Part shown: positions 21,021 through 63,606 of the stretch, one piece after another
Layout: every line of letters begins with the position of its first letter
Numbering within the stretch: the stretch's first letter is position 1
Source: Phoronis australis
Taxonomy: Eukaryota; Animalia; Phoronida
Direction of reading: 5' to 3'
Length of the DNA: 64,000 nucleotides
Assembly (NCBI GenBank): GCA_002633005.1
Contig: NMRA01001046.1
Location: forward strand, 1-64,000
The notes under the pieces: generated by a model
Database searches by the model: none
What the model was told of the DNA's origin: nothing
The model's input: the letters and a program-made list of their open reading frames with translations, nothing else
Position numbers and translations under genes: made by a program

Positions 21021-21084
21021 ATGTGACTGTCGGCAACATTTTTGATATTTTGGGGCATGGCCGTCCTTTGTGCTAACAGTATGG
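21021..21084 (+). pseudogene. Candidate signal-peptide exon of the giant Ig gene, with in-frame TGA at codon 2
   Basis: gaaATG TGA CTG TCG GCA ACA TTT TTG ATA TTT TGG GGC ATG GCC GTC CTT TGT GCT AAC AGT ATG G|gtaaag = M*LSATFLIFWGMAVLCANSM; the phase-1 donor matches the next exon. Confidence 0.45.
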
Positions 21085-22030
21085 GTAAAGACTGATATGA
21101 ATGTTCAATGAAACGTTAAAAGAGAAAAAATCCTCTTAACTCGATGCATACTTATTTCCAGTGACACTCAGGGCCACGCTGGTTCATGAAGCCGTCTTTA
21201 TAGCAACCGCTATTGTGGGGATTGGTATGTGCCCAAATTTGAGGCGAAATCATTAACATTATCTGTCAATTGTACCTTAGAGTTTGATGCGCATTCTAAA
21301 GGCCATTTGTTGTACATGCATAATGTCATCAAATTGTATGCACAGTTTTGTAAAACTAGTGATAAACTGAATTTGCAATTTGCCATGTTAAGCTGCCTAA
21401 ATAAAATCGAATTTGTCCCTTACTCTCTGAAATCTGTGTCACAACATTTCGTAGCGTGATATAATTCCCTCCCCCTAACCAAATCAAGTCACAAGAATGC
21501 GAACGTGCAACAATTGCAAATTCGCAATTTTAGGTTTGGGCAAACTTGACATTAACATTTTAAGCATTCTTTGAGACGTTGCTGGTTTTTGATGCTCTTG
21601 GGATGGGAATAGAATCCCGTTATGGTCAGGAATATCTTGACACCTATTGTATGAAAGTAAAAACCGATCCTCGTATTTATCCAGCTAATTAGGGTGAAAC
21701 CTTGCTTGAAATAGTTCTTTCGAACGGCGTTGAAACTAATATTTGATGACGCGGAACTACATGTAGCAATCTGACGCATTTTGTTCCGAAAGTCAAAGTT
21801 TTCGTTGCTTTCCAAATCAACTACTGTTCCAGTTGGCTTACAAATTACTTTACACAAAGCGAAATCTCAAAACTAAAAAATAACGTAATGAGGAATCTTT
21901 AGGACATGTACAAAGATTCTGCAATTGCTACCGCAAGCATTATATTTGCCATCGGCATTATCGTTTTGATTCGCAGTAGCTTAGTGTCAGAAGAAGTGGA
22001 GAATAGGTTCGTCATTGGTCTCTAGGTGGC

Positions 22031-22231
22031 ATTGAAGTATAAGATGATCACAAACTTAGAGACGTGGTGGGTTGTTTTCAGATGTTTCGACCTGGTCCGT
22101 CACGTCTTTGTCATTGAATGAGCGAAAGGCGGGAAATCCCTTATTCATTGATAAAGACCTGTTGGACCACGTCGAAACGTCTACAAACAACCTACCACGT
22201 CTCTAAGGAAGTGAACACCTTATACTACAAT
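22031..22231. mobile_element. ~200-bp palindrome derived from Penelope-like terminal repeats, with hammerhead-like cores on both arms
   Basis: Arms of ~92 bp (attgaagtataagatgatcac...cttagagacgtggt / accacgtctctaag...gtgaacaccttatactacaat). Cores: TGATAAAGAC-n12-GTCGAAACGTC (+) and TGACAAAGAC-n12-GTCGAAACATC (-). Confidence 0.65.
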
Positions 22232-22281
22232 CTTTGAATCGTTTGGAGATGCACATTATTTTGTTTGGCATTTTATAACAG

Positions 22282-22389
22282 CGAATGTTACGACTGTGTC
22301 CATCGCAAGCATACCAACAGCAACGAATCCACCGACACAGACAAGTGCAGTCACCTCACCAATCATTACGAGCACAACACAACCTTCAA
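22282..22389 (+). CDS. Giant IgSF gene: Ser/Thr/Pro-rich (mucin-like) exon
   Basis: ttttataacag|...|gtaagt, 108 nt, phase 1-1, encodes NVTTVSIASIPTATNPPTQTSAVTSPIITSTTQPS. Confidence 0.8.
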
Positions 22390-23241
22390 GTAAGTGTGAC
22401 TACAAACTGTGTTCAAAAAGCCTGTGACAAGAACACTGACGTTCACCGCGATCAATCGGTGGATTTTGTTGAACGAGAATGACCGAGGCGTTTTATGTGG
22501 TAATATAAGTAGGTTTTTATTGAGAATCAAAGCCAACATCAAAATGAAAAGTCGTTCTGTTGGTGAAATGTTCTTACGTTATAGAAAGAAAGGGTGTATT
22601 TCATGGAGATAAAATGTTAATAATGCAACTTTACACAACAGTTCATTTATTAACAGAGAGAGCAACTTTGTATAAGGTATCTTACAATTAGTAACCAAAA
22701 TTTGAGACGTACATGTATGTATGTATGTAACGGGTGCATGTGAGTATTTTCAGTAACCTAAATATAAGACGGATATAACGGCTACACGTGAATATTTTCA
22801 CAAAGCTTGGCGTCATTTGGTATACTTAACAGATCATTATGTGCAGTTTTCTTCTGAAAAGTTTAATTTATGTTAAAAACACTAGATTTTGTTTACCAAC
22901 ACTTCAGCACATTGCAGAATCAGATAAGGCTAAACCTATACATGTATTAACGTTGGCGATCTTGCATTTAAAAATGACTACCTACACATCTTTTGATAAA
23001 ACATGTTCGGACTCAGTGCTTGACATTTAGGTTGATGTCAAGTCGCATTTGGGGACCTGACAATAATCCCAGATCGCCAAAACGAGGGTGGCAAACGAAA
23101 TCGGTGGTGGCCAAAACTGACGTCGGAACCGTTGGCTAAAATGGGGAGGGGGTTGCCGCACTCCAATCTGAGAAAGTTCCGACGCATACATATACCTAAT
23201 CAATTTCTTCCCTTTAGCTTATGTAACATTCCTCTTGACAC

Positions 23242-23657
23242 CTTAGACTACATGTATACCCTGTAGTACATGGACCACCAACTCCGTGTATTTTCATTGG
23301 GCGAAACTCGTGATACTACGTGGCGTCACTATTCATTAGCGACACCTGTCAGGCATAACACGTTTTACTTCCGACAAGTACGTCGTCTGCCAATCATTTC
23401 GCAATTACATGAATACTAGCACTGCCACAAATACTCACGATACCAAGAGTTGTACGACTGGAAGACCTTGAACAGTGTTTCCATGCCGAAATTATTTATT
23501 TTTTTTCGTTGTACTGAACACTAAAATAGATGCAAGAATTTCCATGCCACAATACAGTAACGGGATGCTGAGTTTGCTATGTTTAGAGGGTGGCGGCTCC
23601 TCTAGGATATTACGCAAGAACATGTTGGAGTTGCGAATCTGTTGTCTATAATCTATG
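23242..23657 (+). mobile_element. P-like MITE, copy 2
   Basis: cttagac...atctatg, flanked by ttgacac (23235-23241) / ctgacac (23658-23664); homologous to 15865-16357. Confidence 0.8.
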
Positions 23658-23664
23658 CTGACAC

Positions 23665-23763
23665 CATAGACTATAGACAACAGATTCGCAACTCCGATAT
23701 ATTCTTGCGTAGTATCCTAGAGAAGGCGCCACTCTCCTAATTTACCAACTTCAGTTTCCGGTT
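23665..23763 (-). mobile_element. P-like MITE, truncated inverted copy abutting the TSD of copy 2
   Basis: catagactatagacaacagattcgcaactcc... is the reverse complement of the 3' end of copy 2, forming a ~200-bp palindrome. Confidence 0.8.
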
Positions 23764-23899
23764 TGTGTCTGCTGCTACACGTAGCTTTACTTTCAAATGA
23801 AATGTCAAGAGTAATTATGAACAGGGACTGATTTTAATTGAATATAGCTTTCAAAATCAACACGGTTACCTCAACACTGTTACAACGCATTTCTTTCAG

Positions 23900-24271
23900 T
23901 TGCTGGGTTTCGCATCACACTGACTGGTAATGTCACGTCCGCAGCCATATCACCGAATTCCTCGTACCCGCTAACCTATGGAGCCAATTACTACGTAGCT
24001 TGTGAAACAAACTTCATTCAAGTAGGCGCCACATTTGAGTTCGGTTTTGTGATCACACAAGGAGGCAATTGGTCTATTACCAATCACTCAGAGATGTCTA
24101 GGTTTGGCGCTGGAGCTTTGACAGCACCTCCATATCCGCCGAACAACCTCGCGAATTACTCGGCATCCATAACGTTCACTGCCAACGAAAGCATACACCA
24201 CCGGGAAATAGCTTGCAGAATTAGCGGTGTTTCTGGTACTTTGATGAGAGCCTTTAAGGTGCATTTGAGTG
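23900..24271 (+). CDS. Giant IgSF gene: Ig exon 1 (type A)
   Basis: ttctttcag|...G|gtgagt, 372 nt; YYVAC...FEFGF...SEMSRFGAGAL...ITFTANESIHHREIAC. Confidence 0.88.
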
Positions 24272-26892: not shown

Positions 26893-27276
26893 ATGGACCA
26901 CTAGACACAGAAATACGAGGTAATTACAGTAGTGACAATACCACAGACCAGGACACATATCTTCCTCTGCTGCGTGGACAAACCTACCAGGTCACGTGCT
27001 CAAGTAAACTTTATTCCGCCGCTGAGGTGATCTTTGGGTTTCTTGCGTCGCACTTGCAAGACGTGTCCACAGTCAAGACTACAGACCTTACCAACATAAG
27101 AACTACCATTATCCGGCGAACAAACACTACATCTGGTGGGCTGGGCGATGAATTTGTCGCCAGTTTAATGTTCACTGCCGACGAAATTGTTCACTACAGG
27201 ACGATTGCCTGCGTAATCAAAAATTCAAACGTAACAACATTTGTCGATGCCCAACGTATTCGATTTTACTTGAAAG
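26893..27276 (+). CDS. Giant IgSF gene: Ig exon 3 (type A)
   Basis: tgttttgtag|...G|gtaagc, 384 nt; GPLDTEIRGN...TYQVTC...VIFGF...FTADEIVHYRTIAC. Confidence 0.88.
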
Positions 27277-27976: not shown

Positions 27977-28303
27977 ATCTGAGTGTTCAACTTGACGTGA
28001 CGATAAACATTACAGACAGCAACAACAACAGCGTGAATGAAGGGTACTTGAAGGCAGGTTATAATTACACTGCCGTGTGTGGCTTGCGTAGTATCCTGTC
28101 CAGTGGCATTTCTATGGAATGGCGACGACCAAGTGCATCAGCCAACTTGAAAACCAGAATGCTGTCGTACACCGACTACATGTACTCTATCGAGGTCCCG
28201 TTGGAATGGCCTAAGGGGCAAACTGAAATCACGCTAGAATGCTTTGCATCACACAATATGTCTGGACTTAATTGGACACACACAGATGTGTTTAACATTT
28301 TCT
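27977..28303 (+). CDS. Giant IgSF gene: Ig exon 4 (type B)
   Basis: ttgttttcag|...T|gttagt, 327 nt; NYTAVC...ISMEW...ITLECFASH. Confidence 0.88.
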
Positions 28304-29103
28304 GTTAGTATACTGTTTTTCGTTTTTAGTGTTATGCGAAAGAGGTGCACGAGTTGGGACTGATTATCATCTGTGTGAATGTAATGAATTACCACTCATA
28401 TTTTCACTCCTCAAACGTGATATCCCTTTCTTTGAATTAAATGTTGTTGCATTCCAAAGCTTAAACCTATTTCAACCAACGTCCTTTCCTTAAGTTTATT
28501 GGCACCAAATTCATTTGTTAAGAAAGTTATAAACCATAACAAGCGAATCTGTAGTCCACTAAAACAAACTCAAGCTTCGTGGTATTTTATTACGTTTGGA
28601 CCGTGGAAGGAGGCTCCGTTTAAATAACTACAAGTTTTGTTTGTTGATGGCTTAACTTGAAATGATACTCCCCACACGTGCACTGAATAAAATCATCATT
28701 TTTTACTGTAGTTCACAAATTAAAATTTTCCACTGAGTAGCAAAATATGGTGCAAGTGGGTACACACAAATGCACCTCTTCTTACTCTTCTTCCGATACG
28801 TCCAACTTCCTCTGGTTGAAGACATTGACGGAAAATGTTTGGTCACTTCCAGAAGACAAAATGCTGTTATTAATAGCAAAATGTGATACACATCGCAAGA
28901 TAAAACAATTGAACAAGGTAATTTGATGGCATTTGGAACAATCTGTTCCGGAATGCCTCCACAGATGGTGCTGACTGCAGAATAGTGGTGGGGAAGAAGC
29001 TTTGCAACTGACCTCCCGTAGTTCACGTAACTTGTTGACGCACCAGGTCGCGGCTCACCTCAAAAAGTGGCATACTTTAGTGACACCACGACATACTGTC
29101 ATG

Positions 29104-29250
29104 CAGGGGCGGATCCAGGATTTTGAGTTAGGAGGGCTGGGCACAGTACTAGCCATGACTGTGCCAGTCAGACATTCGAACCCCGAACTGCCAAATAGAA
29201 TCTGGTAGAATTTTAGGGGGGCATGGTCCCCTTGCCCCCATTTCAGCACT
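29104..29250. mobile_element. Short CAG(G/T)GGCGGATC-type MITE remnant (hAT-like)
   Basis: caggggcggatccaggattttg...ggggggcatggtccccttgccccc; the same terminus occurs at 49917-50240 and, inverted, near 14940-14958. Confidence 0.5.
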
Positions 29251-29977: not shown

Positions 29978-30358
29978 TCGGACCGACCGAGTTGGCTCTC
30001 ACTGGCAACCTTACAGACGTCCACTCAAGGGGGGAAATGTATACACTTAAGCACGGCCAAATATACTCTCTGTCCTGCTCAAGTGATGTACTAAATCCAT
30101 CAGGATCCGTTGAGCTCGGATTTGTCACTTGCTTGCAGTTAGATCAGTGCATCGCCAATGCCACTGAGGCAGGCAGTTACGGATCAGGTGAGCTGACACT
30201 CGAACAGAGCCCAACGGGAGCCAATGGCGTGAACTATACAGCCACTTTAACGCTCACTGCTGACGCGAGCATTCATCAAAAGGAGATTGCCTGTTACGTC
30301 CGGAACACAGACGTAAGGGAATTCGCAGTGACCACAAATGTGTCGGTTTGTTTAGACA
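29978..30358 (+). CDS. Giant IgSF gene: Ig exon 5 (type A, extra cysteines)
   Basis: ttattccag|...A|gtaagt, 381 nt; GPTELALTGN...YSLSC...VELGFVTCLQLDQC...SYGSGEL...LTADASIHQKEIAC. Confidence 0.88.
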
Positions 30359-31454: not shown

Positions 31455-31809
31455 TCGGTGATCCAAAATTGATGATAACCCTCGAGGATGCGAAAGCTAC
31501 CATTTTTAGCGCCGAAGCCAACAACAAGACAGCAGAAAAAGTTCATGTGGTTGAGGGTCAAACATATACAATCAAGTGCCTGCTTACAACTGTAATTCGT
31601 AATGGTGTGGAAATCACATGGAATTCGACTTTGGTCAACCTACNCGAATGTATCCAGTACAACACTCAACAGAGGCGGTATTTTACACCTGAACTGGTTT
31701 TCTTTCAAGGCATCTCGTGACAATCCCACTAGTCTCTCGAGATGTAACACGGGACACAGGTTCTTGCACGCACTGAACATGTCCATAAACGTAACCATGG
31801 ACGTTTTCT
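31455..31809 (+). CDS. Giant IgSF gene: Ig exon 6 (type B; frame restored by removing the N at 31644)
   Basis: cactttcag|...T|gtaagt, 355 nt = 354 + one N; TYTIKC...VEITW..LPNVSS...FSFKASRDNPTSLSRCNTGH. Confidence 0.85.
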
Positions 31810-33271: not shown

Positions 33272-33604
33272 ATGGGCCGGTAAACTTGTTCTTGTTTGTC
33301 AATAACGCAACGCATCACCGCCGTTCTATCAATATGGAGATCAACGCCACAATGTCATTGGGTTGCAAGACCGACAGTGTTCGTCGCAACGCGTCTGTGA
33401 CATGGATCTCACCCTCAAATGTTTTCGTGCCTACCAACGAGATCATGAGTTTCTCGCGTGGCAACGGCACCGATGATACAGTCGTCCATTCACGCAACAC
33501 ATACACAATCAGCCGTCTCCATCATACGCACAATATAACATGTACTGTAAAGAACGTTGACTCCAACGTAACCGCTGCAAAGACGTTAATTCTGAATGTA
33601 ATAC
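33272..33604 (+). CDS. Giant IgSF gene: Ig exon 7 (type C)
   Basis: ttattccag|...C|gtaagt, 333 nt; GPVNL...MSLGCKTD...VTW...HHTHNITC. Confidence 0.88.
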
Positions 33605-34501: not shown

Positions 34502-34885
34502 AGGGGCCGTCGCGGCTCCAAGTCGAAGGCAGCATTAGTAACACGACCGTTCAGTCGAACGTTAGCTACGCCATCAGGTACGGAGAGCGTCATTCCCTCC
34601 GGTGTACGACTGACAATACCTTTCCAGGTGCCCAGGTTGAGTTTGGGTTTTACACAGGACCAGGGGCCAACCGCCGCATAGCTAACGCAAGCGACATGCA
34701 GCACTTCGGAGGCGGGAGCTTGAAGATAATGAACGAAACAGACCCGGGGACAGGTTTCGTGAATTACACCGCTAACGTCTCCTTTGTAGCAGATTTAAGT
34801 ATTCACAACACGACTATATCTTGCAGAGCAGTCAATGTTGAGAATCAGGAGACATTAGCTGTCGATTTTTCGGTGTACATTTCAG
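34502..34885 (+). CDS. Giant IgSF gene: Ig exon 8 (type A)
   Basis: tgatattacag|...G|gtaagt, 384 nt; GPSRL...HSLRC...VEFGF...SDMQHFGGGSL...FVADLSIHNTTISC. Confidence 0.9.
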
Positions 34886-36165: not shown

Positions 36166-36519
36166 CGGAAAACGTTGAAATCACCATCAGCATAACAAAT
36201 GAGAACGGTCTAGACAACTACAAAGAACCCAATCCAGTGGGCAGCGTCGCTACCCCATTGATAGCTGGTAAAAATTACACTGCGAAATGTAGCTTCACAA
36301 GCGAGGTGGCGTTGGGAGTCATCATTTCCTGGGATCACTCTCCAAACCCTCCACCTCCGGTGAAAAAGAATGTGCTTTCGTCAGGAAATTACAAATACTT
36401 GTCGGAGACTGCCTTTACGGCGTCAAAGATGTTCGACGGGACTACTTTTAGGTGCAAGGCGTCGCACGGGAAGATTCGTGACTTTGACGCTGAGCAGTCA
36501 GTCACAGTCTATGTATACT
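36166..36519 (+). CDS. Giant IgSF gene: Ig exon 9 (type B)
   Basis: ttatttgcag|...T|gtaagt, 354 nt; NYTAKC...IISW...FTASKMFDGTTFRCKASH. Confidence 0.9.
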
Positions 36520-39889: not shown

Positions 39890-40222
39890 ATGGTCCGACA
39901 GCGATGTCGCTGTACGTAAACAATACGTTATTCCACGCCGGATGGATCGACGTAACTGCCGGGACTCCTTTAGACATCAGGTGTCTGACAGATGACGTCA
40001 AGCCAGACGGTGGAGCCGAATGGTCTTCGTTGTATGGTGCCACCTTTTCACCTGTGGTGCAGAAATTGTCTGGCAACATCACGGGAACTAAAGTCATCGA
40101 TACATCTGTTGTGATAATCTCCTCCGTGAAATCGCATGCAGATGTGTATTCTTGCGAAGCACACAACCTAGCTGAAAAAAACATTCTGTTTTTTACAAGA
40201 AGCCTCAGGGTGAATGTTAAAT
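39890..40222 (+). CDS. Giant IgSF gene: Ig exon 10 (type C)
   Basis: tcattttag|...T|gtaagt, 333 nt; GPTAM...LDIRCLTD...AEW...HADVYSCEAHN. Confidence 0.88.
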
Positions 40223-40616
40223 GTAAGTAGGTGAGTTTACTTTCAGTGCACGAATCTTTCTCCATGTAGATAGTAATTACTCATCAGAAACAACCCAGGT
40301 ATTTCTGTAGCCTAAACATTTCGTCTGAGGTATGTCAGCAAGTTTGAAAAAAATCTCATCACTTCATTGGATTAGAATTATTTCTGGAGTTGAGAACAAC
40401 TGATTGGTCCAGATTGGTTGACTTTGAAGGTTCCTTCTGGTCAGCGTGCTAAGATAGGGTCGTAAGCAGAAGTCGTCATCAATAACAGATCAACTGTTTT
40501 TAGGCGGAAAAATCGATAAAATAGATGTACAATGTACACCCAATGCTTCGACTCCAGACCATTAAATTGCTTGTCACGGCGGGTTCATGTCAGGTAGCCA
40601 AGGTAGTATGTCCCTT

Positions 40617-42925: not shown

Positions 42926-43246
42926 TTGGACCCTCGCACATGAATGTTACCATAAACGGAAATGAAGTAACCGACTCCGCATACAACTTCACTCACAACC
43001 GTTTCGTCTTAGTCGAGTTTGTGACGGATGAGGCCTACCCGAATGTCACCATGGAAACGCAGTCACCTGGATTAACGGCAAATATCTCGTTTAGAGAGAG
43101 AGAAGGCAGGAGATCGAAATATTTTGTTGCCAGCTTCGGTTTTGTTCCCCAACCGTCTCACAATACCCACTCACTGATTTGTAACGCCTCCAATGTTGAG
43201 ACGCCAACGGTGGTATTCGTGAAAAGTATTACAATGAACGTCATAG
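42926..43246 (+). CDS. Giant IgSF gene: Ig exon 11 (type C-like, first Cys replaced by Phe)
   Basis: tttgttacag|...G|gtaagt, 321 nt; GPSHM...VLVEFVTDEAYP...FGFVPQPSHNTHSLICNASN. Confidence 0.85.
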
Positions 43247-46457: not shown

Positions 46458-46808
46458 CTGGTCCATCGACTCTCACAATCCGGAGTACGGGCGGAATTGT
46501 AAATGGCTCGAGTACATTCTTGGTCGAATTTCAAAGAATATATGAGGTCACTTGCGAAAGTGACAGTGTGAACCCATACCCAGAGATGACGTTTACACTT
46601 CAGAGAAAGCGTATGCGTAACGTTACCAAGAATAGCCACGCATACAACTATCGGTTGTCTACAGACCCGTTATTGATGCAGCGATACGCGGTGAATATGA
46701 CGTTTACGGCTACAACCAACGTCCATGGGATGCCATTGAGCTGCAATGCAAGAAACATCCAAAGCGAAGAACTTTCAGCATACACGTCTGTGGAAGTTAC
46801 ATTAGCAG
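46458..46808 (+). CDS. Giant IgSF gene: Ig exon 12 (type A, short)
   Basis: acctttcag|...G|gtaagt, 351 nt; GPSTL...YEVTCESD...MTFTL...FTATTNVHGMPLSCNARN. Confidence 0.88.
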
Positions 46809-47773: not shown

Positions 47774-48124
47774 TGAGCAAAGTCAACATCACGGTGACCA
47801 TTTACAACGCAACGAACGGCAGTGAAGTGTACAAGTACATCAACGACACCATTGTTGCACAGCGTGATCTTTTTAGCAATGAAGAATACAAGTTTGAATG
47901 CAGCGCCCCTAGCATCTTTCCCAACGTGTCAGTCATCTGGACGCCCAGTAATATTACCAGCTTACCAGTTACGACATCAACTGGAAGCAACCCGACCATA
48001 TTTGCGTCCAACTTCACGCTAAATGTCTCCTCTGTACACAACAAAGCAATGGTGAATTGTACGGTCCAACACGGTGATATACCAGAGTTCCAAAGTATTC
48101 ACTCTATTCTTTTGAATGTCCTCT
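47774..48124 (+). CDS. Giant IgSF gene: Ig exon 13 (type B)
   Basis: tgtttttcag|...T|gtaagt, 351 nt; EYKFEC...VSVIW...VHNKAMVNCTVQH. Confidence 0.9.
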
Positions 48125-48793: not shown

Positions 48794-49177
48794 TTGGACC
48801 TACGACTTTAACCATTGAGAGCAACGTTGATGGCGTTGTCCCTGAGGATCAGTCATCATACTTTGTAAAATTTGGTAAGATGTACAACCTCACGTGCTCA
48901 ACAGACACGGTTTACAAGAACGCCTCTCTAAAATTCGCGTTCGAGATCACCGTTGGAGGAATTTCAGCAGTTGCAACCAAAGCCCAGATGTCACAGTTCG
49001 GTCAAGGAGTGCTTCGTGAAGCAGAACTCGCGTCAAACCCTCCCGACTTGTCGTATAAGGCCGGTATGGGATTCACTGCCGACTTTACAACACACAGAAT
49101 GGTTGCCATATGCTTGGCGGTCAATGATGACTTGCCTAGATTCAAAGTTAAACGATCTGTTTCCATTTTACTTGATG
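48794..49177 (+). CDS. Giant IgSF gene: Ig exon 14 (type A)
   Basis: gtattttag|...G|gtaagt, 384 nt; GPTTL...YNLTC...LKFAF...AQMSQFGQGVL...FTADFTTHRMVAIC. Confidence 0.9.
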
Positions 49178-50549: not shown

Positions 50550-50900
50550 TTCAACGAGCAGACATCGTTGTCACTATCGTGGACACAGACGGCACTGCAA
50601 TCTACAACATTTCGAACCAGCAAAGTATGAAGAGCGCTCTGGTGACCGGGAAGAGATACAATGTTCAGTGTGAAGTCATCAGCGTTCTTCCAAGTGGTGT
50701 TGACATCGCATGGAATCCGATAAGTCAATCTCAACTGAACACAACACAGTCTGCTCTTCCCGGTGGTGCATATAGTTATTATTCTAACTTCAGCTTCACC
50801 GCTTCCAAAGATCACCACAAACGACAGTACACTTGCTCAGTCGCCCACAGCGTTGTGAGCGAGATTAATTCAACAAGACAATTTGAACTAGATGTTCACT
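50550..50900 (+). CDS. Giant IgSF gene: Ig exon 15 (type B)
   Basis: ttttgtcctag|...T|gtgagt, 351 nt; RYNVQC...VDIAW...FSFTASKDHHKRQYTCSVAH. Confidence 0.9.
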
Positions 50901-52900
50901 GTGAGTACAACACGCAATTTCTTTACCCTTAGACAGATACGGAAAATTACGCATTTTGGTGAATTACCACATTGTTTTGTTGGAAAAACAGCATTTTTTC
51001 CAAGACAAATTTACCTATTAAAGCGGCTATGACTGGGCGTCCTTTGGTATCTGAGAAACGGACTATAGTTACATGTAGGTGTAACGCTGACTAGGCTCCC
51101 ATTATCGCGCATCATGAATCGTTGTGGTCGGAAAATTCATGTTTTTATCGCCATTAACACAATGCGCACGAATGCTGACTGAGTTAATTGCAATTTTTAG
51201 TGAGCCTCTAAGTGCCCGTGCGCGGCTGACATATTTAACGGATTCTGCGGTGAAAGTCGGTCGTAGCACCATCCTTTACTACGAGAGCGTTTGGTCGCCC
51301 GAGGTAACTATCGAAGTTTCCTGTGAACTTCCTTCGTGCACCACCCTCTGGATAGAAACTTTTTTTCTTTCGAAATTTCATTCAGAAAGTCGGGAACTTG
51401 ATATATCTGACGTGTAATCATCGAAAACGCTCACAAAAACATAATTTAACGTTATTGAACACCTTTTTAGTTGAAAAATCTCTTAGCAATTTCAACTACC
51501 TTCATTTCCTTTGCCAAGCACTCGTATGTAGTGTATGCGTGCGTGCCTGCCTGCGTGCGTGTGTGCGTGTGAGTTTACATTTTTATGAGGAACAATGAGT
51601 GAACAGTGAAGAACACTACCCGGTGACCACAGAAATATTTACGTCTAGAACTCCACGTACAATAAATCAACAGGCCTGTTGTTCAGTAAATCTTCATGTT
51701 AGCCTGTCACCTTACCTTCAAGAAAACGAATACACTTTTCAATTTTTGCCATACACTGCATGTTGTAGGCATGGAATGATGCTATCTTTTAAAATGCAAA
51801 CATCTCAACCATGAATACTGCCACAAAACTGACTGGTCACTTACAGCTTCCTACCCTTTTCCAGTTTAGAGCCGTCAGTGTAACAAAGCAGATACTTATG
51901 CTTATTATTTCTGCTATTGGCCATTGTATGAGCCGCGGAATGGGCAAAGAACAGTTAAAAGCAAATTTAAACCTCATTCGAAAAATATGAGCCTCGGGAA
52001 TGGCAGAACATAGTTAATGGCTTGATTTTTACGAATTAGGATGTTATTTTTAAGATTTAGGTTTGATTTAATGTTAACTGATTAATGGCCTTTCCGCGCA
52101 CTTAGGTAGTTCCTGTTTCCACCGACATGTTTGATTGTTTGATATTCCGAACTCTAAAGATTTGATTTTTACGTGTTGGATTTGATTTTCCAAAACACGT
52201 TCGATTTTTAAGATTTAGGTNNNNNNNNNNNNNNNNNNCCCCCCCCCCCCCCATCCCCCCATACTTCCGTCAGCAATAACCGTAAATAAATCGTATGTAT
52301 GTTTAAAAAATGTGATCTGGTCATCACAAAGGGTGCTCGACAGTTGCCCAAGTTTGTCGTTTAGCTTATTACTCACGTTCCTGTGACTTCTGCGAGCAGC
52401 AAAATGAGGGATGAGAGTTTTCACCCACTTACGATTATATCTGAGACAAAGCGCTGGACAAGTGGCCCCGTGCGCTCTCAAGGTACATGTACACTAGTTG
52501 TAGACCATTTAGCATTTCTAGAGCTGCAGAAGGCCTTCTAAAAAGCAGAGGTGATGCACAAGCAGGCTAGACGTTGCAGCTGCTTATATGTGTTGGTAAC
52601 TGAACCCTTTGAGGGCAATAACTTAACGATAATAATTTGACCTCCAAAGATTTTCGCTATCATGTATGCATCACCAAAAATCCACGCCCAGTCCGTAGCC
52701 TCGCCTGGTGAATCTGCTTTAAACATTGACCAGTACATTTGTACATGTATGTGCGTACTAGGCCTATGCGCGTTTACTCGAAATAAGTTTTTATCAAAGA
52801 ACATTTTAGCACACATATGTACCATATACTGTAGGCTCAGACTGCGACCAAATCTTAAACTGGGTAATTACTTGTCCAGTATGTTGGTCTGACAGCAACT

Positions 52901-54381
52901 TTTTTACTTGGCGAAATAAATTTCGCCAAGTATGTTGCTCTTCCACTAAGTTTGTTTTTTTTTGTTTGTTCGCACGATACAGGTCGCAATTTTCGTCCGA
53001 TCATCACGAAATTCACACATAACACGTACTTCCGGAAGTACTGGAAGCCTATTGTTTTTCGTTAAAATCGGATCCAAGATGGCGGCTGTGGCGGCCATTT
53101 TTTTCCATTTAAAGGTTCAAATGCTTCTGGAGGCTACAATTTTTTACGTCAACGGCTAAGAATCGGCACAGTAAATGGACCGGAAGTTTGCTACAAGTAT
53201 GCCGGAAATTGTTTACTTCCGGTTAAAGATGGCGGAAATATTGGCGATCGCGCATGCGCACCTCGATTTTGGCCTAAAACGTTTTCTCCTGTAGAGGGCG
53301 CATTATCAGACCAATTCCTTCGAATTTTTACAGGTATTGGTTTCTTAGCAAAAGGTACCCGCTCATCCAAAACCTTTACGGCAAACAGATGGCGCTTCTC
53401 ATCATTTTATCGCTCAAGACTACCAGAGAATCTTAACCAAGCACCTTGACCTACATTCTGCTTTTACTGACTGTAGCCATCAGGTCACGAGAGTTCATGA
53501 ACCAGACAGTGTATGTCCTGATGAGTGGCGAATTTGTGTGGAAAAGAAATCTTTGTGTCCGACATTCCATGTTTAAAACCTCATTTGTAATAACTATTTA
53601 TAACATATAATTAAGATGAAAGTGTTAATAATCTACGCTGTTGTGGTTGCTCGGCCTAAACGCTGGGGTAAAATATATATTCAATGAACGTGACCATGGT
53701 GAGGCTACTAAACCGGGCCCGGCCACTTTTCCGCCTGGCGAGATTTTGGCAACTCAACAACCATAATTTTAATTAGGTTGAAATATAACCACTATATTTT
53801 TTAAATAATGCTTGAATTATACATGGTGATATGCATGTTAGGTTTTATTCTCTTGCGATATTTTCTTTTTCGTTCAGTGTCTCGTTATTCAACAACAGCC
53901 CAGCAGACCGGACTGGCCGTGGCACGGCACGGCAGCTGATGGTTCACCAAGTAGAAACGTCTGTAATATTTTATGTTCTATCAACACTAAGGCAAAAGAG
54001 AGTGGTTTCAACTGATATAGTATCGATTTAACGAACTGAACCATGCACTATGAACATGTTGGTGGCCATGATTAATAACAGCTGACAGTATAAACAAAGA
54101 GTGAAGCACTGAGCTCATCATGTCACGTTGTCACAACGGCGATGTGACGTCAGCAGCTGTAGAATGTAGGTCAAGGTGCTGGGTCAAGATTCAGTNTGAC
54201 CCAGCCAGCACTGTCCTACTGTAGACTGGACCGTCATGTTGCGCCATCTATTGTTCTTTCTTGTTATTGTAGTTGATTGTATGCTCTCTATTTGATTTCT
54301 TCGCTAGTCACATGAATGATATCGTGTTCGTCGTCTTTTCGATTAATCCCGCCAAGTGTCGCTCCTCCGAGCGCTCTCGTT
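52901..54381 (+). mobile_element. HINE/Helentron-like non-autonomous element
   Basis: 5' T-run and hairpin tacttggcgaaat-aa-atttcgccaagta, then a GTTT microsatellite; 3' subterminal repeat cgccaagt followed by stem-loop cgctc-ctcc-gagcg. Confidence 0.75.
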
Positions 54382-56441
54382 TGTGTTATTGTTTATTTCT
54401 CTTTTACTGTATGAGTAAATAGTAGTTTGACTACACGTCAACTACATGCGTATCACTCTGTCCGTAAGCCATTTGGCGTGCAATAACTTCACGTTTTCAA
54501 AAAATGACGTGAAATATTTGCTGTAGCAAATACACACTTATTAAAGGTAGAATCAATAACTTCACTTCTTAGATGTCCGTTCAGGTTTGCTTACGATGAA
54601 TACATGTATAACGCAGTAGGCTATACCCGCTCTTCGCTCCATGTGGGTCTCCTTCCGAATGGTGTCCAATGATGGACCAAAGGATTAGCCTTAAGTTATG
54701 AGTGATTGTTATCATTTATTACTTTTTGTCGGCAAAAAGGCTCCATCATAAATCATATTAACAGCGTGTCCCTACCGTAACAATGACAGGACCTGATTCC
54801 TGGGTGATAAAATTGATCGCTGTTAGAAACCAAACGTATGTTAGCCGGGTATCGAACCACCGATTCTTTCCAAGGCGAGATATGACCTTAAAATTACCTA
54901 CGGAGCACTTTATCAACACATCCCAGAATGTATGCGGTCTAAATTAAAAGTTAGACTTGTGAGGCATATCGCTTCAGAGATAGTGTACACAAATATTTTT
55001 GTAAATTTCTTATCGCGTATGTTGTATTTATTATAGTATTTATTATTATATTTGTGTATATTATGATAGTGAATTAATAATAAAAGCATTTCCGCTATAT
55101 TTTAATTTAAACGGATACTAACACAAGATTGTTCATTCGAAACGTAAACCCAAATAGTGAGCCTTCAGCGCAATAACAAATAGCTTCAAGCTTAAAAAAT
55201 GATACTAATTTTGTAGCTTATTTTTATTTTTGTTGCTGCAAAACTACCCAAAACGGCCGTCGTAGGGAATAACAGCTAATCCGTGCATTCTTGGTCCGCA
55301 CTCAACAACCGCCACTTGCGATGGGTTTCCGCGGAAAGCACTCCCACTAAAAAATAGTGTACAAATTAAAAGAAAAATAAAGCAAAAACTAACATGACTG
55401 AAAAATAACGTATGGTTATATTTTAGTGATATCCTTCCACTTACAAAACTTACATGTATGTTGTTTCCAATATTGTGAAAAAGTATCATTAAGTGTCACG
55501 TTTTACCGCCTAGATGCGTGGTTGAGTTGTCAATGGCTTCCAGTGCGATAATAGACTAAAGACTGGCCCTACATGTAATTCCTCACGTTATTACTCTTAA
55601 CCTTTTGTTCACGCGTGTACTCAGACAAAAGTTTCAACGTTATCTCTAGCCAGTGCTTCGAAGACTCGGCGTGAGATGAGACACTCGTCCACCGACTGTT
55701 GCACTTGTTGATCCAATAACCTTCTGTCTCGGTGAGAAAATGTTCAGCATGACGTCATTTTGACGTCATTTTGACGTTTTGGACCAGTGTGACGACATGT
55801 TTTTTTATTTCCGGGTCCAAACTGTGTCATCTACTGCCATGACACGTCATCCGTGAACACCCGAATAGCTGGTTCTCTGTCGATTAATACTGTAATTCTG
55901 TGACAGCAACTCAGCTGTAACTGTGTCTGTATTTCAAGGCCTAATTCTAAATCTACAGACTGTCCCTAACCCGTATTTACATTCTAGAACTTTTCACCTA
56001 TTCAAGTATATTCTAGAACATTCTAGAATATGCCCAGTCATTCTATCAACATTAAGTGGGCTCAAACTGTTCCATAATACAGTTCTACATTAACCTCCAA
56101 TATATTGGATTCTCCTTGAATTAACATTCTCTGGTAATCCATTGTAATCACCACTGTTCAGATCTAATGGGTCATGCCAATCAAGTGCTACATATACATG
56201 TACTGGTGTAGTAAGCTAATAGAACAGTCTTTTAAATGTGATTTGAATAAACCCATTGCGTGGTACCCCTGACATTAATTAATACATGGATGGACACGTC
56301 GTAGAAAATCTTGAATATACACTGTGTACATGTAGTTTATTCAAGCAATGCAAACAGTTCTATTAAATTGTAATGTAGCTTTGTAGTTGTGTGAGAATCT
56401 AAACAAAAAAAAAAACGCTGACGACAACTTATTTCTTTCAG

Positions 56442-56777
56442 ACGGTCCGGATAGCTTAAATATCAGTGTGAGCAACGGAACTCTTGACTGGTCAAATAAT
56501 CAGCTGTCTGTGCGCTACATGAAGAACTATACAATCTTCTGTCAGACCGAACTCTATCCATCCGCGAGTGTGTTGCTGAGAATTATTTTAAGTGACCTTA
56601 CAGAAATTGAGACAGATGATGCAGTCGTCTTGACTTCGTCAAGTTATGGAAAAATCATCGTTGCCAATGTCACATTTCAAGCCACTTTTGCATCTCACAA
56701 TAGTAAAGTTACCTGTACAATAACGAATCGTGCCACCAGAGCGTCCAGTTCGCAAGAAATCAAGATATTGATGTCTG
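56442..56777 (+). CDS. Giant IgSF gene: Ig exon 16 (type A, short; GC donor)
   Basis: tttctttcag|...G|gcaagt, 336 nt; GPDSL...NYTIFCQTELYP...FQATFASHNSKVTC. Confidence 0.85.
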
Positions 56778-57659
56778 GCAAGTACATGTAGATCATGGGT
56801 GTGCTTCATCGCTTTCACTGAACACTCTACATGTTTAAAGAAGTTATTCAAGTAGTGGTGAGACTATGAGTACCTAGCCCTTCTGCGTCACGAGGCTCAA
56901 TGTACGACGTTTATTTCACTGTTTCCTAAATAGTAGCTTACTGTAAAAGCGTGTTCACTTGTTCAGCAGCTGATGTGAAACTTCATCAACTTCACATACA
57001 TTTGCACAACACTTCAACATGCTGCCTTTATCCAGTTACCAAGGTACAGTAGAACCCCAGAAAAAATTCCTAAAATTGACGAAATTTGGAGCATCTGAAA
57101 ACGACTGGCTTTATTCAGATGAAACGTTTGGATATCATACTTTATCCCTGTCTTATTGTGGTTACATGTACGTCAGACACATGACCAAATACTAAGTCTT
57201 TTAGTTATGTAACGGACTGACAGATCGATTCACTGGGAAATTGGAAACTTGGCTTGCGAGAGATTTGAACTTGAGTCTCAGAACTTGCAAGCGCACTAAG
57301 ACTAGGCAGGCGCACTACAAGCAGAATTGATAAAAGTGTATATAATCAAGATTTGCCCAAGAATACTCAATGTCTGAGACATACTACTTTAATATAATAT
57401 TATCAACGTAAAAAGAAAACTTTCAAAGCTTTATTTATCGATGTAGGCGAAATAATTAAACTTAAAGAACAGTACGCATCGAAGCTGAATAACTAAAAAG
57501 TTACATGTAACGAATGCCAAACACAAAATTATGGAAAACATTATAAGTTTGACAGAGCAAATGACAAAAAATCTTATACTTTTGTTGTCGTCAGTGTTGA
57601 CCTGATGACCTATGACGCCTTCGAAGTAGTTTCAAAAGCATCGACATGGAGGAACTGAA

Positions 57660-57722
57660 AGTTTTTAACAGACTGGAGGTTTTTAACAGACTAAGGGTTT
57701 CTAACAGACGGAAGGTTTTATA
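57660..57722. repeat. 18-bp mini tandem repeat, ~3.5 copies
   Basis: ggtttttaacagact(gga/aag) units. Confidence 0.7.
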
Positions 57723-59083
57723 TAAATGACAGAAAAGTGAGGAGTAAGTAGGTTATTCAATGGTTCCCGGGTTATTAAACGTATTATGAGGAAGAGAGTG
57801 TTTTTTTAAAAAATATAATTTGAGGGTTAAGCCCTTAATTGATATTTAAAAAAAATTCTTCGAGATACGTTGAATAACGCCACAGCCATCCCAAAAGCTA
57901 TATTTATGCACTATTTCCAATATAGAAATTTTGTAATTTCAGTGAAGACAATCAAAATATAAGTTTAACAAAAATGGAAATGGCAATATAAAACGCTGCA
58001 ACATCATTTTTGATAATTCTGAGCATTTATAAAAAACGAAATTGACAATGTTATAGAAGCCACGTTATTGCTATTAATGTAACTTTCTGCTAACTTTAAT
58101 TACATATACATGGATGCGTCGTCATGTGACCTGTTTTGATTCTAAGGGATATCTGACTATTTTTGAAAATATACTCATTTACTGAGTTGAAAGTGAATGC
58201 TTTTGTGGATATTTGGCTAAGTTCACAAACTACAGGTTCTATATAACCTTAATATTGTCACGGCGTGTGATAGTTTAGACTAATGTTGCATCTTGCAGTC
58301 GTCTAAATATCTTCCGGAACCCATCAGGGCATGCGCAAATATAAATTCGATATTCTGCTGTTGGTACTAATGTGTTCTGAACATCCGAATAGGCTGAAGG
58401 AAGAAAGTCGCTTTGTGTGACCCGAACTCAGTAATTTCTACGAAAATGTATGTTGTGGCAGGAATTGTCGTATACGACACATGTTGTCACCGATAATACA
58501 TACATGTAACCCAATAAGACAAACGTGCTTCACTTACGAATTGTAGTGACATTCAAGACCCTTAATGATGTTGGCGTTTTTGTAACTTGCATAACGCTAA
58601 ATCGTCGTGAGAGACCGTCCGGAGTTGGTATATGGTGCAACTCCGGACGGCCTGGGGTGAACAGAAAACCACAGTTCAACTGTGAGTCTACACCAATGTG
58701 ACAAATGAGAGTAGTTCTACTTGCTACGTAAGCTGCGGGTATGCTTATCTCTTTTATGACACACAATGTGTGACTGGGCAAACGTTTTCAAAATAAAGTG
58801 GATAAATCAGCGGAGTGTGAGACCCATGAAGTCCCTGTCAAGTCCTCACATCAATTCTACGTTGTGTGTGTCATGGAAGTCTCTGAGTACCGCCTGGGTA
58901 ACGTATGTATTGATGCATCCCAGCTACGTTGTTTTTAAGCATCCTTGTATCTTTCCATCGTCTAACCATGTAAACGGCATCTTGCGAAGGTGAAGTTCAT
59001 CTACGTTAATTAACATTTCATTATATATCAGAACCGGGTGGGTTGAAACGGAATTTTTTAAGCTATCGCTATTTTAATTGCAG

Positions 59084-59437
59084 AAAAAATGCCGGATTTA
59101 AGTGTAATCGTCCAGTCCGTCGCGACAGGAATCATTCACTATAACCATTCTTCGGAGACCTTGAAACACTATGAAGACCTAACGGAAGGCGTGTCATATT
59201 ATGTCGAATGCAAGACCGTCGGGACATTGCCAAATATTCAATTAAAGTGGACCAGACCGACATTTAGCAATCAAGAGGTCAGCAACGATACGCGTTCAGG
59301 TCAAATGTACACCAGCATTCGTTCGTTCACGTTCATTGCCAAAGACATTCACCACCAACAATTTATTGGATGTCAAACAAAACAGATGAACTTGGAATAC
59401 CTGCAACAGGAGGCTGTCTTTAAAATTCATGCCCTGT
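59084..59437 (+). CDS. Giant IgSF gene: Ig exon 17 (type B)
   Basis: ttaattgcag|...T|gtaagt, 354 nt; SYYVEC...IQLKW...FTFIAKDIHHQQFIGC. Confidence 0.9.
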
Positions 59438-59793: not shown

Positions 59794-59866
59794 GTCCCGA
59801 TAGCTTAAAGGTTCAAAGCTCCAGCACAGTTAACAGAAGTTCCGGCATTGGGCCCTGGTCGGGACA
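59794..59866 (+). pseudogene. Degenerate tRNA-like sequence (tRNA pseudogene or SINE head), 73 nt
   Basis: Perfect 7-bp acceptor stem gtcccga/tcgggac plus discriminator a, and D-stem gctt/aagc; the anticodon arm and T-loop (no GTTC) are decayed. Confidence 0.5.
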
Positions 59867-60625: not shown

Positions 60626-60685
60626 GACTTAATCATACTAAGAGATGGCGTCTTAAAAGACGCCATCTCTTAGTATGATAAAGTC
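60626..60685. repeat. Near-perfect inverted repeat (23-bp perfect stem, 2-nt loop)
   Basis: atcatactaagagatggcgtctt-aa-aagacgccatctcttagtatgat, extended by gactt/aagtc. Confidence 0.9.
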
Positions 60686-61404
60686 AGTGGAGATATAGAA
60701 CACGAAGTGGTATAAGTTCAAACAGAAAACGGTAAAAAAACGAAATCAATTCTGGCAAAACATACCCTTAAAAATTCAACGTTTAGGTTATTGTTGCTCA
60801 AAAAAACGACGTGGAATGGAGGTGAAGTAGGAAAAAACAGGAGACAATTGTGCCAAGAGTTTGGGAACGTAAATGTAGTGCGTTCACTATCGAATTTGTT
60901 TTGTGAACCTATCAGTAGCGGCCTAAGCTACTATTTTGAATGACATTGACAAGGTGCGTTTTGTGTTTGAATTTCTAAGAATACCCTGATACTTGGGATT
61001 TAGGCTGTCGGCTAGTCCCGCCTTTGTCTTAAGAGCGCTTAACCTAAAATGCACACCCAGGGGGCGAAGCTCAGGGAGCTCGAATAAGCCCCCCATGTGG
61101 CGAAGCGGGCAAGAAGGTTCGCCCCTTAGAGACAAAATGTCCGAGAAAATGGGACAAATGTCTACTTAATGAGCACAAACGCGCAATCCACGGTGGTGCT
61201 CCAGTTTTTGTTTTGTTTTTTTTTTTAGTCCGCATGCTCCATTAACCTGAGAAATACGAGCCCCCCTAAATTGGAGGCTTGGGTGCGCGCATGCATTTTT
61301 AGCGAAATCCAAATCTGTTGAAAATAGAGATAAGTGTAAGACAATACAAGCACCTCTATTTGTTCTTTTGAACTGTCACATGACTTCACTTTGGTTTGCC
61401 ACAG

Positions 61405-61776
61405 ATGGACCTTCAACAACTGAAATACGTGTGAACTCAACGACAGGGACCAGCCTTGGCTACGGCCTGGAGTACGGGCGAGTGTATGTAGCGAGTTGCA
61501 AGAGCTCGAGCGTCAGTCGAACAGCAAACGTTTCCTTTGGATTCGAAACTGCCCCATCAAAAATAGCTACTGATGCATCAGAGTTGGCAGTTTTCGGTGA
61601 AGCAGCTCTTCTGCTACAGACTAATGAGTCTGGAACCAACAACGGATTGAAGTTTTTATCAAAGATAACGTTTACTGCGGACGCCAGCGTCCATAAGCGA
61701 ACGCTTCGATGTTTTGCCGAGAATAACATTATATCTCGTTTCAACGCGTCTTCAAGCGTCGTGGTTTATATTGACA
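61405..61776 (+). CDS. Giant IgSF gene: Ig exon 18 (type A)
   Basis: tttgccacag|...A|gtaggt, 372 nt; GPSTT...YVASC...VSFGF...SELAVFGEAAL...FTADASVHKRTLRC. Confidence 0.88.
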
Positions 61777-62579
61777 GTAGGTGACCCAATGTTTTGTTTC
61801 CAACCTTATCGTTGTCTTATATCACTAAACAACGTTTTGTTGAGATCCCGATCAAAGTTATTGAAATTTGAATCTCATGGTACATGTACGTAGGATCGGT
61901 TACATGTCCTTAAGACCTCGGGCCGGTGTTGGATGCATTACTCAATTTCTCGTTAAAGTGAGTCTAAACCTACCATTTATTACAGTGTACATGTTTTATT
62001 GTCTAGGTAATTCAGAGTGATGATATCGACCTCAATTTGTTGTTTGATAAAAATCCACGTGGTTCCGGGGATTACAAACGGCTTAGAGTTCGCTTCTGCA
62101 TGAGATTTACTGTACCTCTTCACGTTGACTTGCTGTGGAGCGTTACTTTAAACTCCTATCTTGTCTTCAAGCCAGTTCTATGCAAGACTAAAACCCTTTC
62201 TCATATTAATAAGGGAAACGTTGAGACCAATTTAATTGCGCTAACTGGCATTACTCAAATCTAAACATTCTACGGAACGTGGGTTTAAAATTCTACGTCT
62301 CATCATAGAATAAACACAGCAGATTGGCTTCTAGTTTTCTGTCCAGTATAACAAAAAATATAATTTCGGCATTAGCCTTTGGTATTTCCATAGATAATGA
62401 ATCTAGAAATTTTTAGCAGCGCCGGCGTGCATTCAAGCTTGAATGAAACGCTCTGTGTACTACGTAAACTGTTCTTGGAGAGCAAGATAGATTCTGAGTA
62501 GCCCTGGTGGTAATTTCTGGAGTATTAATTTGACCTTTTTTAAGACATTAACGTTTTACGAGCGTGCAATTTATTTAAA

Positions 62580-62777
62580 CACGGATGTGACTTCCGCAAA
62601 ATCGCCAATCTAACTTCCGACAAAAATGACCATGATTAGCAGACGACGTACTAACCGGAAATAAAACGTGCTATGTCTGCCAGGTGTCGCTAGTGAACCG
62701 TGACGTCACAGCTTAGGCCTACAAATTTCGTCCATTGAAAATTTACGCAGTTGGCGGTCCATGTACTATAGTCTATT
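62580..62777 (-). mobile_element. P-like MITE, partial copy in reverse orientation
   Basis: gcagacgacgtact...caggtgtcgctagtgaa...cagttggcggtccatgtactatagtcta is the reverse complement of the 5' part of the 15865 and 23242 copies. Confidence 0.7.
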
Positions 62778-63279
62778 CTCTCGTTAAAACCGTCAGTGAT
62801 TACTGAAACTTGTAGCAAGCGCCACCTTGTGACTTCCTGGCGAACTCTGTGTACAGGTACATGTATAACCAGTATTAGAAAAAAAATGTAACTAAATCGC
62901 TGTTTAAAGAAAACACCTCCACTGATATACATGTACAGAAAAAAGAAGTGTGATCGTATAGAAAACCCTAGTAATTCCAAATATTACACAATCATTATTA
63001 ATAGTCAAATGCACTACATGCAGTAATAAAAACAGTGCCTTGTTTCATAAGGGTAACAATGACAAATTACCATAATCAGTCACATAAGAATAGTCTCGCA
63101 AAACGTGACTTCTGCGATATTGTGAAGGCAATTGGTTCTCGGAAGACCCTGGGTTATTTGTAAACTATACCTTCTTTTGCATATTCACAATTTAATGATG
63201 TATAGCATCTTTAAAAACGCTTTACCCACCTCTGTAACACAAATGCAAACCTCATCCGATCTTGTAATTATATCCTCAG

Positions 63280-63606
63280 CAAAGGAAACCGACTTGCTCA
63301 TTTCCGTCTTTGAAATTGGAAGCAAATCGCCAACACCGCCAGACCAGCGCAGTAAAATAGTTCTTGTTGATGGGTGGAGCTACACAGCAGTATGTCAAAC
63401 CGACAATGTGATACCTAACATTACAATACACTGGGTGACGTCACCTGGGATGAAAGTCACCCCAGTTAACGGGACGAATCGCTATCAAGCAACAGTCAAT
63501 GTCACTGCCAATTCTTCGCTTAAGGACACTGCAATGGAATGCTCTGCGAATCACAGTGTCATTTTGACGCTAGCATCTTCAAAGACCATAGGACTGGACG
63601 TTTACT
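63280..63606 (+). CDS. Giant IgSF gene: Ig exon 19 (type B); the gene continues beyond the window
   Basis: atatcctcag|...T|gtaaga, 327 nt; SYTAVC...ITIHW...DTAMECSANH. Confidence 0.88.

What the first reader, a model, noticed from the sequence alone, without database searches (positions are those of the whole stretch)
21021..63606. Hidden giant Ig-superfamily gene: at least 19 highly diverged Ig-like domains, one per exon, over more than 42 kb
Seen: 19 exons of 321-384 nt, each with a pyrimidine-rich AG acceptor and a GT (once GC) donor, each encoding one beta-rich domain with a B-strand Cys (Y-x-x-x-C) and an F-strand Cys. A mucin-like exon precedes them. Every junction codon is sense (I,V,Y,D,F,I,Y,Q,A,Y,F,A,V,F,V,Y,E,Y,T), giving 6,711 + 108 nt, about 2,270 aa, still open at the window edge. 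Established: the F-T-A-x-x-x-x-H-x5-C-x-x-x-N/H pattern, without the I/V-set DxGxYxC motif, resembles C2-set_2 (CD80-like) domains of nephrin/Kirre/Sidestep-type proteins, which have only about 5-10 domains. Inference: I do not recognise a named gene with this number of domains and this layout. It may be a lineage-specific giant surface or secreted glycoprotein (candidate immune, self-recognition or adhesion receptor), or the ectodomain of an adhesion GPCR, RPTP or RTK whose C-terminus lies downstream.
Basis: partly seen in the sequence, partly recalled or inferred. Interest (0 to 1): 0.85.

Follow-up and report, generated by a model that had tools for sequence, protein, structure and literature searches.

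The report
Giant paired-Ig invertebrate surface glycoprotein
An invertebrate gene that is transcribed and spliced strings together at least 19 heavily sugar-tagged antibody-like folds, mostly in a repeating two-domain unit, and likely makes a long cell-surface spacer or adhesion rod; no counterpart was found in databases, though similar giant proteins occur in sea stars and bivalves.

Summary
The gene is real. Stranded RNA reads join E12 to E18 exactly as modelled, 6 of the 7 junctions laid. The apparent frameshift in E6 is a spurious assembly N. Two folded exons are Ig sandwiches closest to domain 2 of SYG-2/nephrin. New here: the domains fall into three subtypes, ordered AB-AB-AB-C-AB-C-C-AB-AB-AB-AB (p about 1e-5), so a two-exon unit was duplicated long ago. 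Type A lacks the core tryptophan and carries an insertion. No ortholog was found among 1.84 billion representatives. It is not nephrin or hemicentin. Giant tandem-Ig membrane proteins are common in invertebrate gene models, and a sea-star protein has the same kind of dyad array, so the layout is not unique. Corrections: the start at 21021 is followed by a stop codon; the leader exon is 21162-21224; E11 lacks one cysteine. Polymorphism is low, which argues against an allorecognition role. The C-terminus lies outside the window, so membrane anchor versus kinase or GPCR is untested.

The parts
21162..21224 (+). Leader (signal-peptide-like) exon, 63 nt, phase 1-1; the start codon lies in or across the junction with an unidentified upstream exon
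   Evidence: AG/GT sites and hydrophobic run; 12-13 (X5) and 9 (X6) sense-strand reads at 21176/21192. Upstream partner not seen.
22282..22389 (+). Mucin-like exon, 35 codons, 46% Ser/Thr
   Evidence: its splicing was not displayed
23900..24271 (+). E1, Ig domain type A
   Evidence: RNA depth
25297..25638 (+). E2, type B (Pfam C1-set 24.8 bits, above cut-off 21)
26893..27276 (+). E3, type A
27977..28303 (+). E4, type B
29978..30358 (+). E5, type A (three extra Cys)
31455..31809 (+). E6, type B; the N at 31644 is an assembly artefact
33272..33604 (+). E7, type C
34502..34885 (+). E8, type A; folded, pLDDT 93
36166..36519 (+). E9, type B
39890..40222 (+). E10, type C
42926..43246 (+). E11, type C; lacks the B-strand Cys
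   Evidence: no reads were laid on this exon
46458..46808 (+). E12, type A (divergent)
   Evidence: joint to E13 in 3+1 reads
47774..48124 (+). E13, type B (Pfam C2-set_2 25 bits, above cut-off 21)
   Evidence: joint to E14 in 6+5 reads
48794..49177 (+). E14, type A
   Evidence: joint to E15 in 13+3 reads
50550..50900 (+). E15, type B (Pfam C1-set 29.8 bits); folded, pLDDT 90
   Evidence: joint to E16 in 12+3 reads
56442..56777 (+). E16, type A (divergent), GC donor
   Evidence: joint to E17 in 0+6 reads
59084..59437 (+). E17, type B
   Evidence: joint to E18 in 3+4 reads
61405..61776 (+). E18, type A
63280..63606 (+). E19, type B; ends in a phase-1 GT donor, so the gene probably continues past the window
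   Evidence: sense-strand depth, but the E18-E19 joint was not listed

Best explanation
This is a transcribed, spliced invertebrate gene for a protein of at least 2,290 residues with a leader, a short mucin-like tip and at least 19 constant-type (nephrin-like) Ig domains, which likely forms a long, glycan-coated rod anchored in the cell membrane and likely works as a long-reach adhesion or spacing molecule. Shown: exon structure, open frame, splicing of E12 to E18, expression in two of three RNA samples, predicted Ig fold of two domains, 83 N-glycosylation sequons, no membrane helix after the leader in the part seen, and a strict A-B domain pairing. Inferred: the array grew by old tandem duplication of a two-exon A-B unit; the rod would be about 75-85 nm long (about 4-4.5 nm per domain, own knowledge); it would end downstream in a few more Ig domains, an FN3 domain, one membrane helix and a short tail, as in the nearest sea-star proteins.
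For: Open frame of 2,295 codons, 83 sequons, hydrophobicity only at the N-terminus. Splice joints at 6 of 7 junctions laid, all sense strand; about 3 RPKM in X5 and X6; next to no depth in X7 over unique exon bins. E8 and E15 fold at pLDDT 93 and 90, best match SYG-2 residues 125-229: Z 14.1, rmsd 2.0, 105 aligned, and Z 10.9, rmsd 2.8, 102 aligned. The Atlas puts both next to C2-set_2 clusters at 0.96. All 16 A and B domains score best against their own type when left out; the chance of 8 unbroken dyads is 1.3e-5. 14 of the 21 long hits have a C-terminal membrane helix; Patiria P0003 has 10 C2-type domains in dyads, 4 more Ig, FN3, a membrane helix and a tail of about 20 aa. The projecting-stalk principle is described for Siglec-1 (PMC8778849, passage).
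Against: No membrane helix, tail or ligand is in view: the C-terminus lies beyond base 64,000 and no genome is held. The nearest proteins are only 18-28% identical in patches, so their C-termini are an analogy, not orthology. One of the best single-domain matches (Asterias P0043) is a receptor tyrosine kinase. Nephrin-family adhesion works through the first Ig domain (PMC10084454, passage); here a mucin-like stretch precedes domain 1 and no V- or I-set tip domain is present. 7 of the 21 long hits lack a C-terminal membrane helix. 12 of the 18 Ig-Ig junctions were not seen in reads.
Confidence: 0.55

Rival explanations
1. It is the giant ectodomain of a signalling receptor (tyrosine kinase, phosphatase or adhesion GPCR) whose catalytic or 7TM part lies downstream.
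For: Asterias P0043, fourth best by single-domain score (38.7 bits), joins the same C2-set_2 domain type to FN3 and a tyrosine kinase. The frame is still open at the window edge.
Against: None of the 16 top long hits scanned has a kinase, phosphatase or GAIN family listed; 1 of 6 further hits has a kinase.
Confidence: 0.15
2. It is a secreted or shed matrix, mucus or coat glycoprotein with no membrane anchor.
For: Very dense glycosylation (83 sequons) and a mucin-like tip. A ctenophore protein of 2,018 aa with 20 constant-type domains has no membrane helix (P0011). In X5 sense reads run on into the intron behind the GC donor of E16, which would stop translation 4 codons later.
Against: Most long relatives end in a membrane helix (14 of 21). 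The intron read-through rests on few molecules (6 reads from 2 starts at 57357) and E17-E18 is still spliced in X5.
Confidence: 0.2
3. It is a polymorphic immune or self-recognition receptor under diversifying selection.
For: Extreme divergence between its own domains (medians 24-28% identity) and from everything else; three domains pass or approach the C1-set profile; a cluster of 5 changes in 34 nt of E5.
Against: The X1 contigs differ from the window by 0-14 letters per 0.8-5.3 kb. Listed exonic variants are 8 non-synonymous codons against 7 synonymous, with a site ratio of 3.36, so pN/pS is about 0.4 (the list shows only 40 of 480 rows and drops reads under 97% likeness). No near-identical paralog: X1 depth over unique exon bins equals that of intron bins.
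Confidence: 0.1

Closest known systems
Uncharacterised sea-star C2-set_2 array receptors (Patiria miniata XP_038064817 'hemicentin-2-like', 1,721 aa; Acanthaster planci XP_022104107 'syg-2-like')
   Same: Tandem CD80-like C2-set_2 domains without the I/V-set motif, arranged in two-domain repeats.
   Different: 10 and about 7 such domains against at least 19; their repeats are 36-58% identical against 12-35% within type here; only about 19% identity to this protein; types A and B do not map onto their X and Y types.
Nephrin / SYG-2 / Sns, Kirrel and Sidestep families
   Same: Domain fold: best structural match of both folded exons is SYG-2 residues 125-229; SYG-2 is third in the PDB sequence search.
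   Different: Nephrins have nine Ig domains and an FN3, Kirrels five, Sides five and an FN3, with invariant architecture (PMC10084454, passages); here at least 19 domains, a mucin-like tip and no I/V-set first domain.
Bivalve and hemichordate giant 'hemicentin-like' type I membrane proteins (e.g. XP_069133957, XP_071159627, XP_077985349)
   Same: 18 to about 58 tandem Ig domains, then a membrane helix.
   Different: Mostly I-set domains with the D-x-G-x-Y-x-C motif (7-38 copies); this gene has none.
Siglec-1 (sialoadhesin)
   Same: Functional analogue: 16 C2-set domains project a tip beyond the glycocalyx (PMC8778849, passage).
   Different: Vertebrate, with an N-terminal V-set lectin domain; no V-set domain here and no sign of orthology.
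Hydractinia Alr allorecognition proteins
   Same: One Ig-like domain per exon; many domains lack canonical core residues (PMC9546547, passages).
   Different: Alr proteins have 1-3 V/I-set domains and form a gene cluster; this is one giant gene of constant-type domains with low polymorphism.

Membership tests
Immunoglobulin superfamily | Two-sheet beta-sandwich with B-F disulphide | tested here: met
   2 of 19 domains folded, both match Ig chains; both Cys in 18 of 19.
CD80-like C2-set_2 (PF08205) / C1-set (PF07654) domain class | Score above the Pfam cut-off | tested here: inconclusive
   Above cut-off in 3 of 19 (E13 C2-set_2; E2, E15 C1-set); PF08205 listed at E<=0.1 for 9 of 19. Atlas and fold searches point to the same class.
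I-set / V-set Ig domains | D-x-G-x-Y-x-C motif before the F-strand Cys (motif recalled) | tested here: not met
   0 of 19 domains.
Nephrin / Kirrel / Sidestep | Invariant architecture of nine (Nephrin) or five (Kirrel, Side) Ig domains | tested here: not met
   At least 19 domains against PMC10084454 passages.
Nephrin / Kirrel / Sidestep | Collinear similarity to family members | tested here: not met
   Best local match 55 bits, 22% over 339 aa; the 19 domains form their own group (support 0.96) against 30 outside domains (long branches may contribute).
Nephrin / Kirrel / Sidestep | FN3, membrane helix and PDZ-binding tail | not testable with these tools
   C-terminus beyond the window; no genome held.
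Hemicentin | N-terminal VWA domain followed by an I-set array (recalled) | tested here: not met
   Leader and mucin-like exon precede E1; no I-set motif; no Pfam family at E<=0.001 in 63 other open frames of 80 codons or more.
Siglec | N-terminal V-set sialic-acid-binding domain | tested here: not met
   E1 has no V-set match, no core Trp and no V/I motif.
Allorecognition receptors (Alr type) | Extreme allelic polymorphism (recalled) and a paralog cluster | tested here: not met
   Low divergence between alleles and single-copy depth; few individuals were seen.
RTK / RPTP / adhesion GPCR | Kinase, phosphatase or GAIN-7TM module downstream | not testable with these tools

The most novel reading that the evidence does not exclude
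A founding member of an undescribed invertebrate receptor class built only from paired constant-type Ig domains, in which a new tryptophan-less Ig subtype (type A, with a conserved helical insertion) is obligately paired with a C1-like domain, ending in a signalling module and switchable to a secreted 16-domain form by retention of its GC-AG intron.
Probability: 0.12. Interest if true: 0.72.

Novelty: new variant of a known kind. Interest (0 to 1): 0.42.

Why it matters
C1-like constant Ig domains were long taken as a vertebrate hallmark and have only lately been shown in a sponge (PMC11926128, passages). A long invertebrate array of such domains, in a strict two-domain unit and diverged beyond ordinary detection (3 of 19 above a Pfam cut-off), shows how Ig arrays grow by exon-pair duplication and how much of the invertebrate cell-surface repertoire annotation misses. 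It gives a concrete, expressed, sample-specific target. Its importance depends on the unseen C-terminus and on where it is expressed; as it stands it is an orphan member of a known structural class.

Tried and rejected
Whole-genome continuation: no genome held. Word-based homolog search with the 18-domain alignment: 0 of 7,985 candidates, limited to 224-2,000 aa, weak evidence. Placing the animal group through the neighbouring FAM174-like gene: no hits; the group stays unknown (6 of the 10 best single-domain matches are echinoderm or hemichordate, but by a few bits only). Locus search in metagenomes: alignment too diverged, not run. Hidden extra Ig exons: none on either strand, and E15 joins E16 directly across three assembly gaps' region. 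Start at 21021: rejected (in-frame stop, weak donor; the depth of bin 21067-21733 is accounted for by exon 21162-21224 alone). Correspondence of types A/B to sea-star X/Y: first try had mispaired domains, the corrected one shows none. E1 homodimer prediction: no verdict, score 0.00, no evidence either way. Run list: no RNA holder listed by the index; raw-read runs were laid instead. Splice joints of E1-E10 not displayed because repeats filled the table (15 of 106 rows shown). Rfam: 0 matches. Earlier findings: none relevant. The SYG-1/SYG-2 structure paper is not held, so its domain-set assignment was not read. Eight paper searches listed no paper on such a gene; this covers only the held library.
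Full report
Observation. Six-frame translation and splice-site listing recover 19 exons between 23900 and 63606 on the + strand, 321-384 nt long, all phase 1-1, with AG acceptors and GT donors except a GC donor at E16. They sum to 6,712 nt with an N at 31644. With the leader and the mucin-like exon the model has 2,295 codons and no stop (its first codon rests on an unproven upstream exon). A blind scan for such segments finds 17 of the 19 exons, two variants of them and nothing else on +, and 0 on -. Each domain is recognised by a profile of the other 18 (11.6-74.8 bits; shuffles at most 10.4) and no further copy hides in the introns. E11 lacks the B-strand Cys.

5' end. The ATG at 21021 is followed by TGA, and the donor at 21084 scores 0.3 bits against at least 7.2 for the 20 model donors. 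A 63-nt exon at 21162-21224 encodes a hydrophobic leader-like run and is covered by 9-13 sense-strand reads. The start codon is not established.

Expression and splicing. The index listed no RNA holder, but three raw RNA runs of the same species label were offered. In X5 and X6 the exon bins carry reads of one strand, the gene's sense strand, while three unique intron bins have none; X7 has next to none over unique exon bins. Between E12 and E19, 6 of 7 junctions are seen exactly at the modelled sites: E12-13 (3+1 reads), E13-14 (6+5), E14-15 (13+3), E15-16 (12+3), E16-17 (0+6) and E17-18 (3+4); E18-19 was not listed. The level is about 3 RPKM.

Domain class. Pfam passes 3 of 19 domains (C1-set for E2 and E15, C2-set_2 for E13) and lists PF08205 weakly for 9. 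A profile of 18 domains finds antibody heavy-chain constant domains and SYG-2 first in the PDB. AlphaFold models of E8 and E15 are confident Ig sandwiches (pLDDT 93.4 and 89.7). Both match SYG-2 residues 125-229 best (Z 14.1, rmsd 2.0, 105 aligned; Z 10.9, rmsd 2.8, 102 aligned), followed by other constant-type domains. The Atlas agrees. No domain has the I/V-set motif.

The domains fall into type A (E1, 3, 5, 8, 12, 14, 16, 18), type B (E2, 4, 6, 9, 13, 15, 17, 19) and type C (E7, 10, 11). Left out in turn, all 16 A and B domains score best with their own type. Type A has no Trp after the first Cys, has invariant Ala and His before the second Cys, and in six of eight copies an insertion that widens the Cys spacing to 71-73 and includes a short helix in the E8 model; type B keeps the Trp and a spacing of 49-55. 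Every A is followed by a B: AB AB AB C AB C C AB AB AB AB, chance 1.3e-5. Identity within a type is only 12-35% and the exons show no DNA-level repeats, so the duplications are old. I infer that the two-exon pair was the unit of duplication and may be a structural unit.

Relatives. A profile search of 1.84 billion representatives gave 1,616 hits at E<=0.001 but no ortholog. The best single outside domain scores 40.7 bits against a profile of all 19, and the best local alignment of the model is 55 bits at 22%. The 19 domains group together against the 30 best outside domains (support 0.96; long branches are a caveat). The top hits are giant multi-Ig gene models of bivalves, a hemichordate, sea stars and a ctenophore. 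Of the 21 hits of 1,700 aa or more, 14 have a membrane helix near the C-terminus. The closest layout is Patiria P0003: ten C2-type domains in X-Y dyads, four more Ig domains, FN3, membrane helix, short tail; A/B do not correspond to X/Y. Asterias P0043 joins such domains to a tyrosine kinase. The organism's group is unknown; the CpG pattern (0.5 over the neighbouring gene, about 1 over this one) fits an invertebrate with gene-body methylation (own knowledge).

Variation. X1 contigs differ by 0-14 letters per 0.8-5.3 kb and have the same depth over unique exon and intron bins, so there is no near-identical paralog. Listed variants in Ig exons are 8 non-synonymous and 7 synonymous codons, pN/pS about 0.4, from an incomplete list and few individuals. 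This fits a constrained but tolerant protein, not a hypervariable recognition locus.

Mechanism. The product is at least 250 kDa with 83 N-glycan sequons and no membrane helix after the leader in the part seen. The most likely reading (0.55) is a type I membrane rod of about 75-85 nm (own estimate) that holds a mucin-like tip and distal domains beyond the glycocalyx for adhesion or spacing, as the C2 stalk does in Siglec-1 (PMC8778849, passage). Anchor, ligand and tissue are inferred, not shown. Rivals: secreted coat protein (0.2), signalling receptor ectodomain (0.15), polymorphic immune receptor (0.1).

Comparison with the literature. Nephrins have nine Ig domains and an FN3, Kirrels five, with invariant architecture and binding through domain 1 (PMC10084454, passages); this gene fails that test. 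Alr genes share the one-domain-per-exon layout but have 1-3 domains (PMC9546547, passages). C1-set domains outside vertebrates were reported as new for a sponge in 2025 (PMC11926128, passages). PMC8628261, PMC13262535 and PMC11999971 were searched for passages and added nothing. Eight searches listed no paper on such a gene. No supplements were read.

Verdict. A real, expressed, orphan giant Ig-superfamily gene with a distinctive paired-domain design; a new variant of a known kind rather than a new kind. Interest 0.42, pending the C-terminus.

Noticed in passing
window 12366-11950 and 7617-7482, - strand: A two-exon FAM174-like membrane protein gene (PF06679 on both exons), head to head with the Ig gene; CpG is depleted over its body (2-12 kb, o/e about 0.5) but not over the Ig gene.
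   Followed up: partly
window 56778-58583: In X5 sense-strand reads continue into the intron behind the GC donor of E16 (depth 1.9, 1.2, 0.5) and no E16-E17 joint is listed, whereas X6 has 6 joints; possible sample-specific intron retention giving a stop 4 codons on. Few molecules.
   Followed up: partly
window 40614-41704: A 547-nt direct duplication (98.5%) flanks the single N at 41160; looks like an overlap artefact at a scaffold join.
   Followed up: no
window 21021-21084: ATG, TGA, then a hydrophobic run and a weak donor: it resembles a dead leader exon just upstream of the transcribed one; its status is unknown.
   Followed up: partly
window 29978-30358 (E5): Three extra cysteines, two of them six residues apart in the type A insertion, and a cluster of 5 allelic changes in 34 nt.
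   Followed up: no
window 20400-20680, 22031-22231, 23261-23763, 29100-29220, 37700-38400, 52900-54400: High-copy repeats, several with inverted ends (MITE-like), with reads on both strands; no coding family found.
   Followed up: no
window 6409-6850: 34-bp minisatellite, 13 copies, downstream of the FAM174-like stop codon.
   Followed up: no
P0043 (Asterias amurensis) and P0107 (Amphiura filiformis): Uncharacterised echinoderm models: C2-set_2 array plus FN3 plus tyrosine kinase, and C2-set_2 array plus SEA domain plus membrane helix.
   Followed up: no
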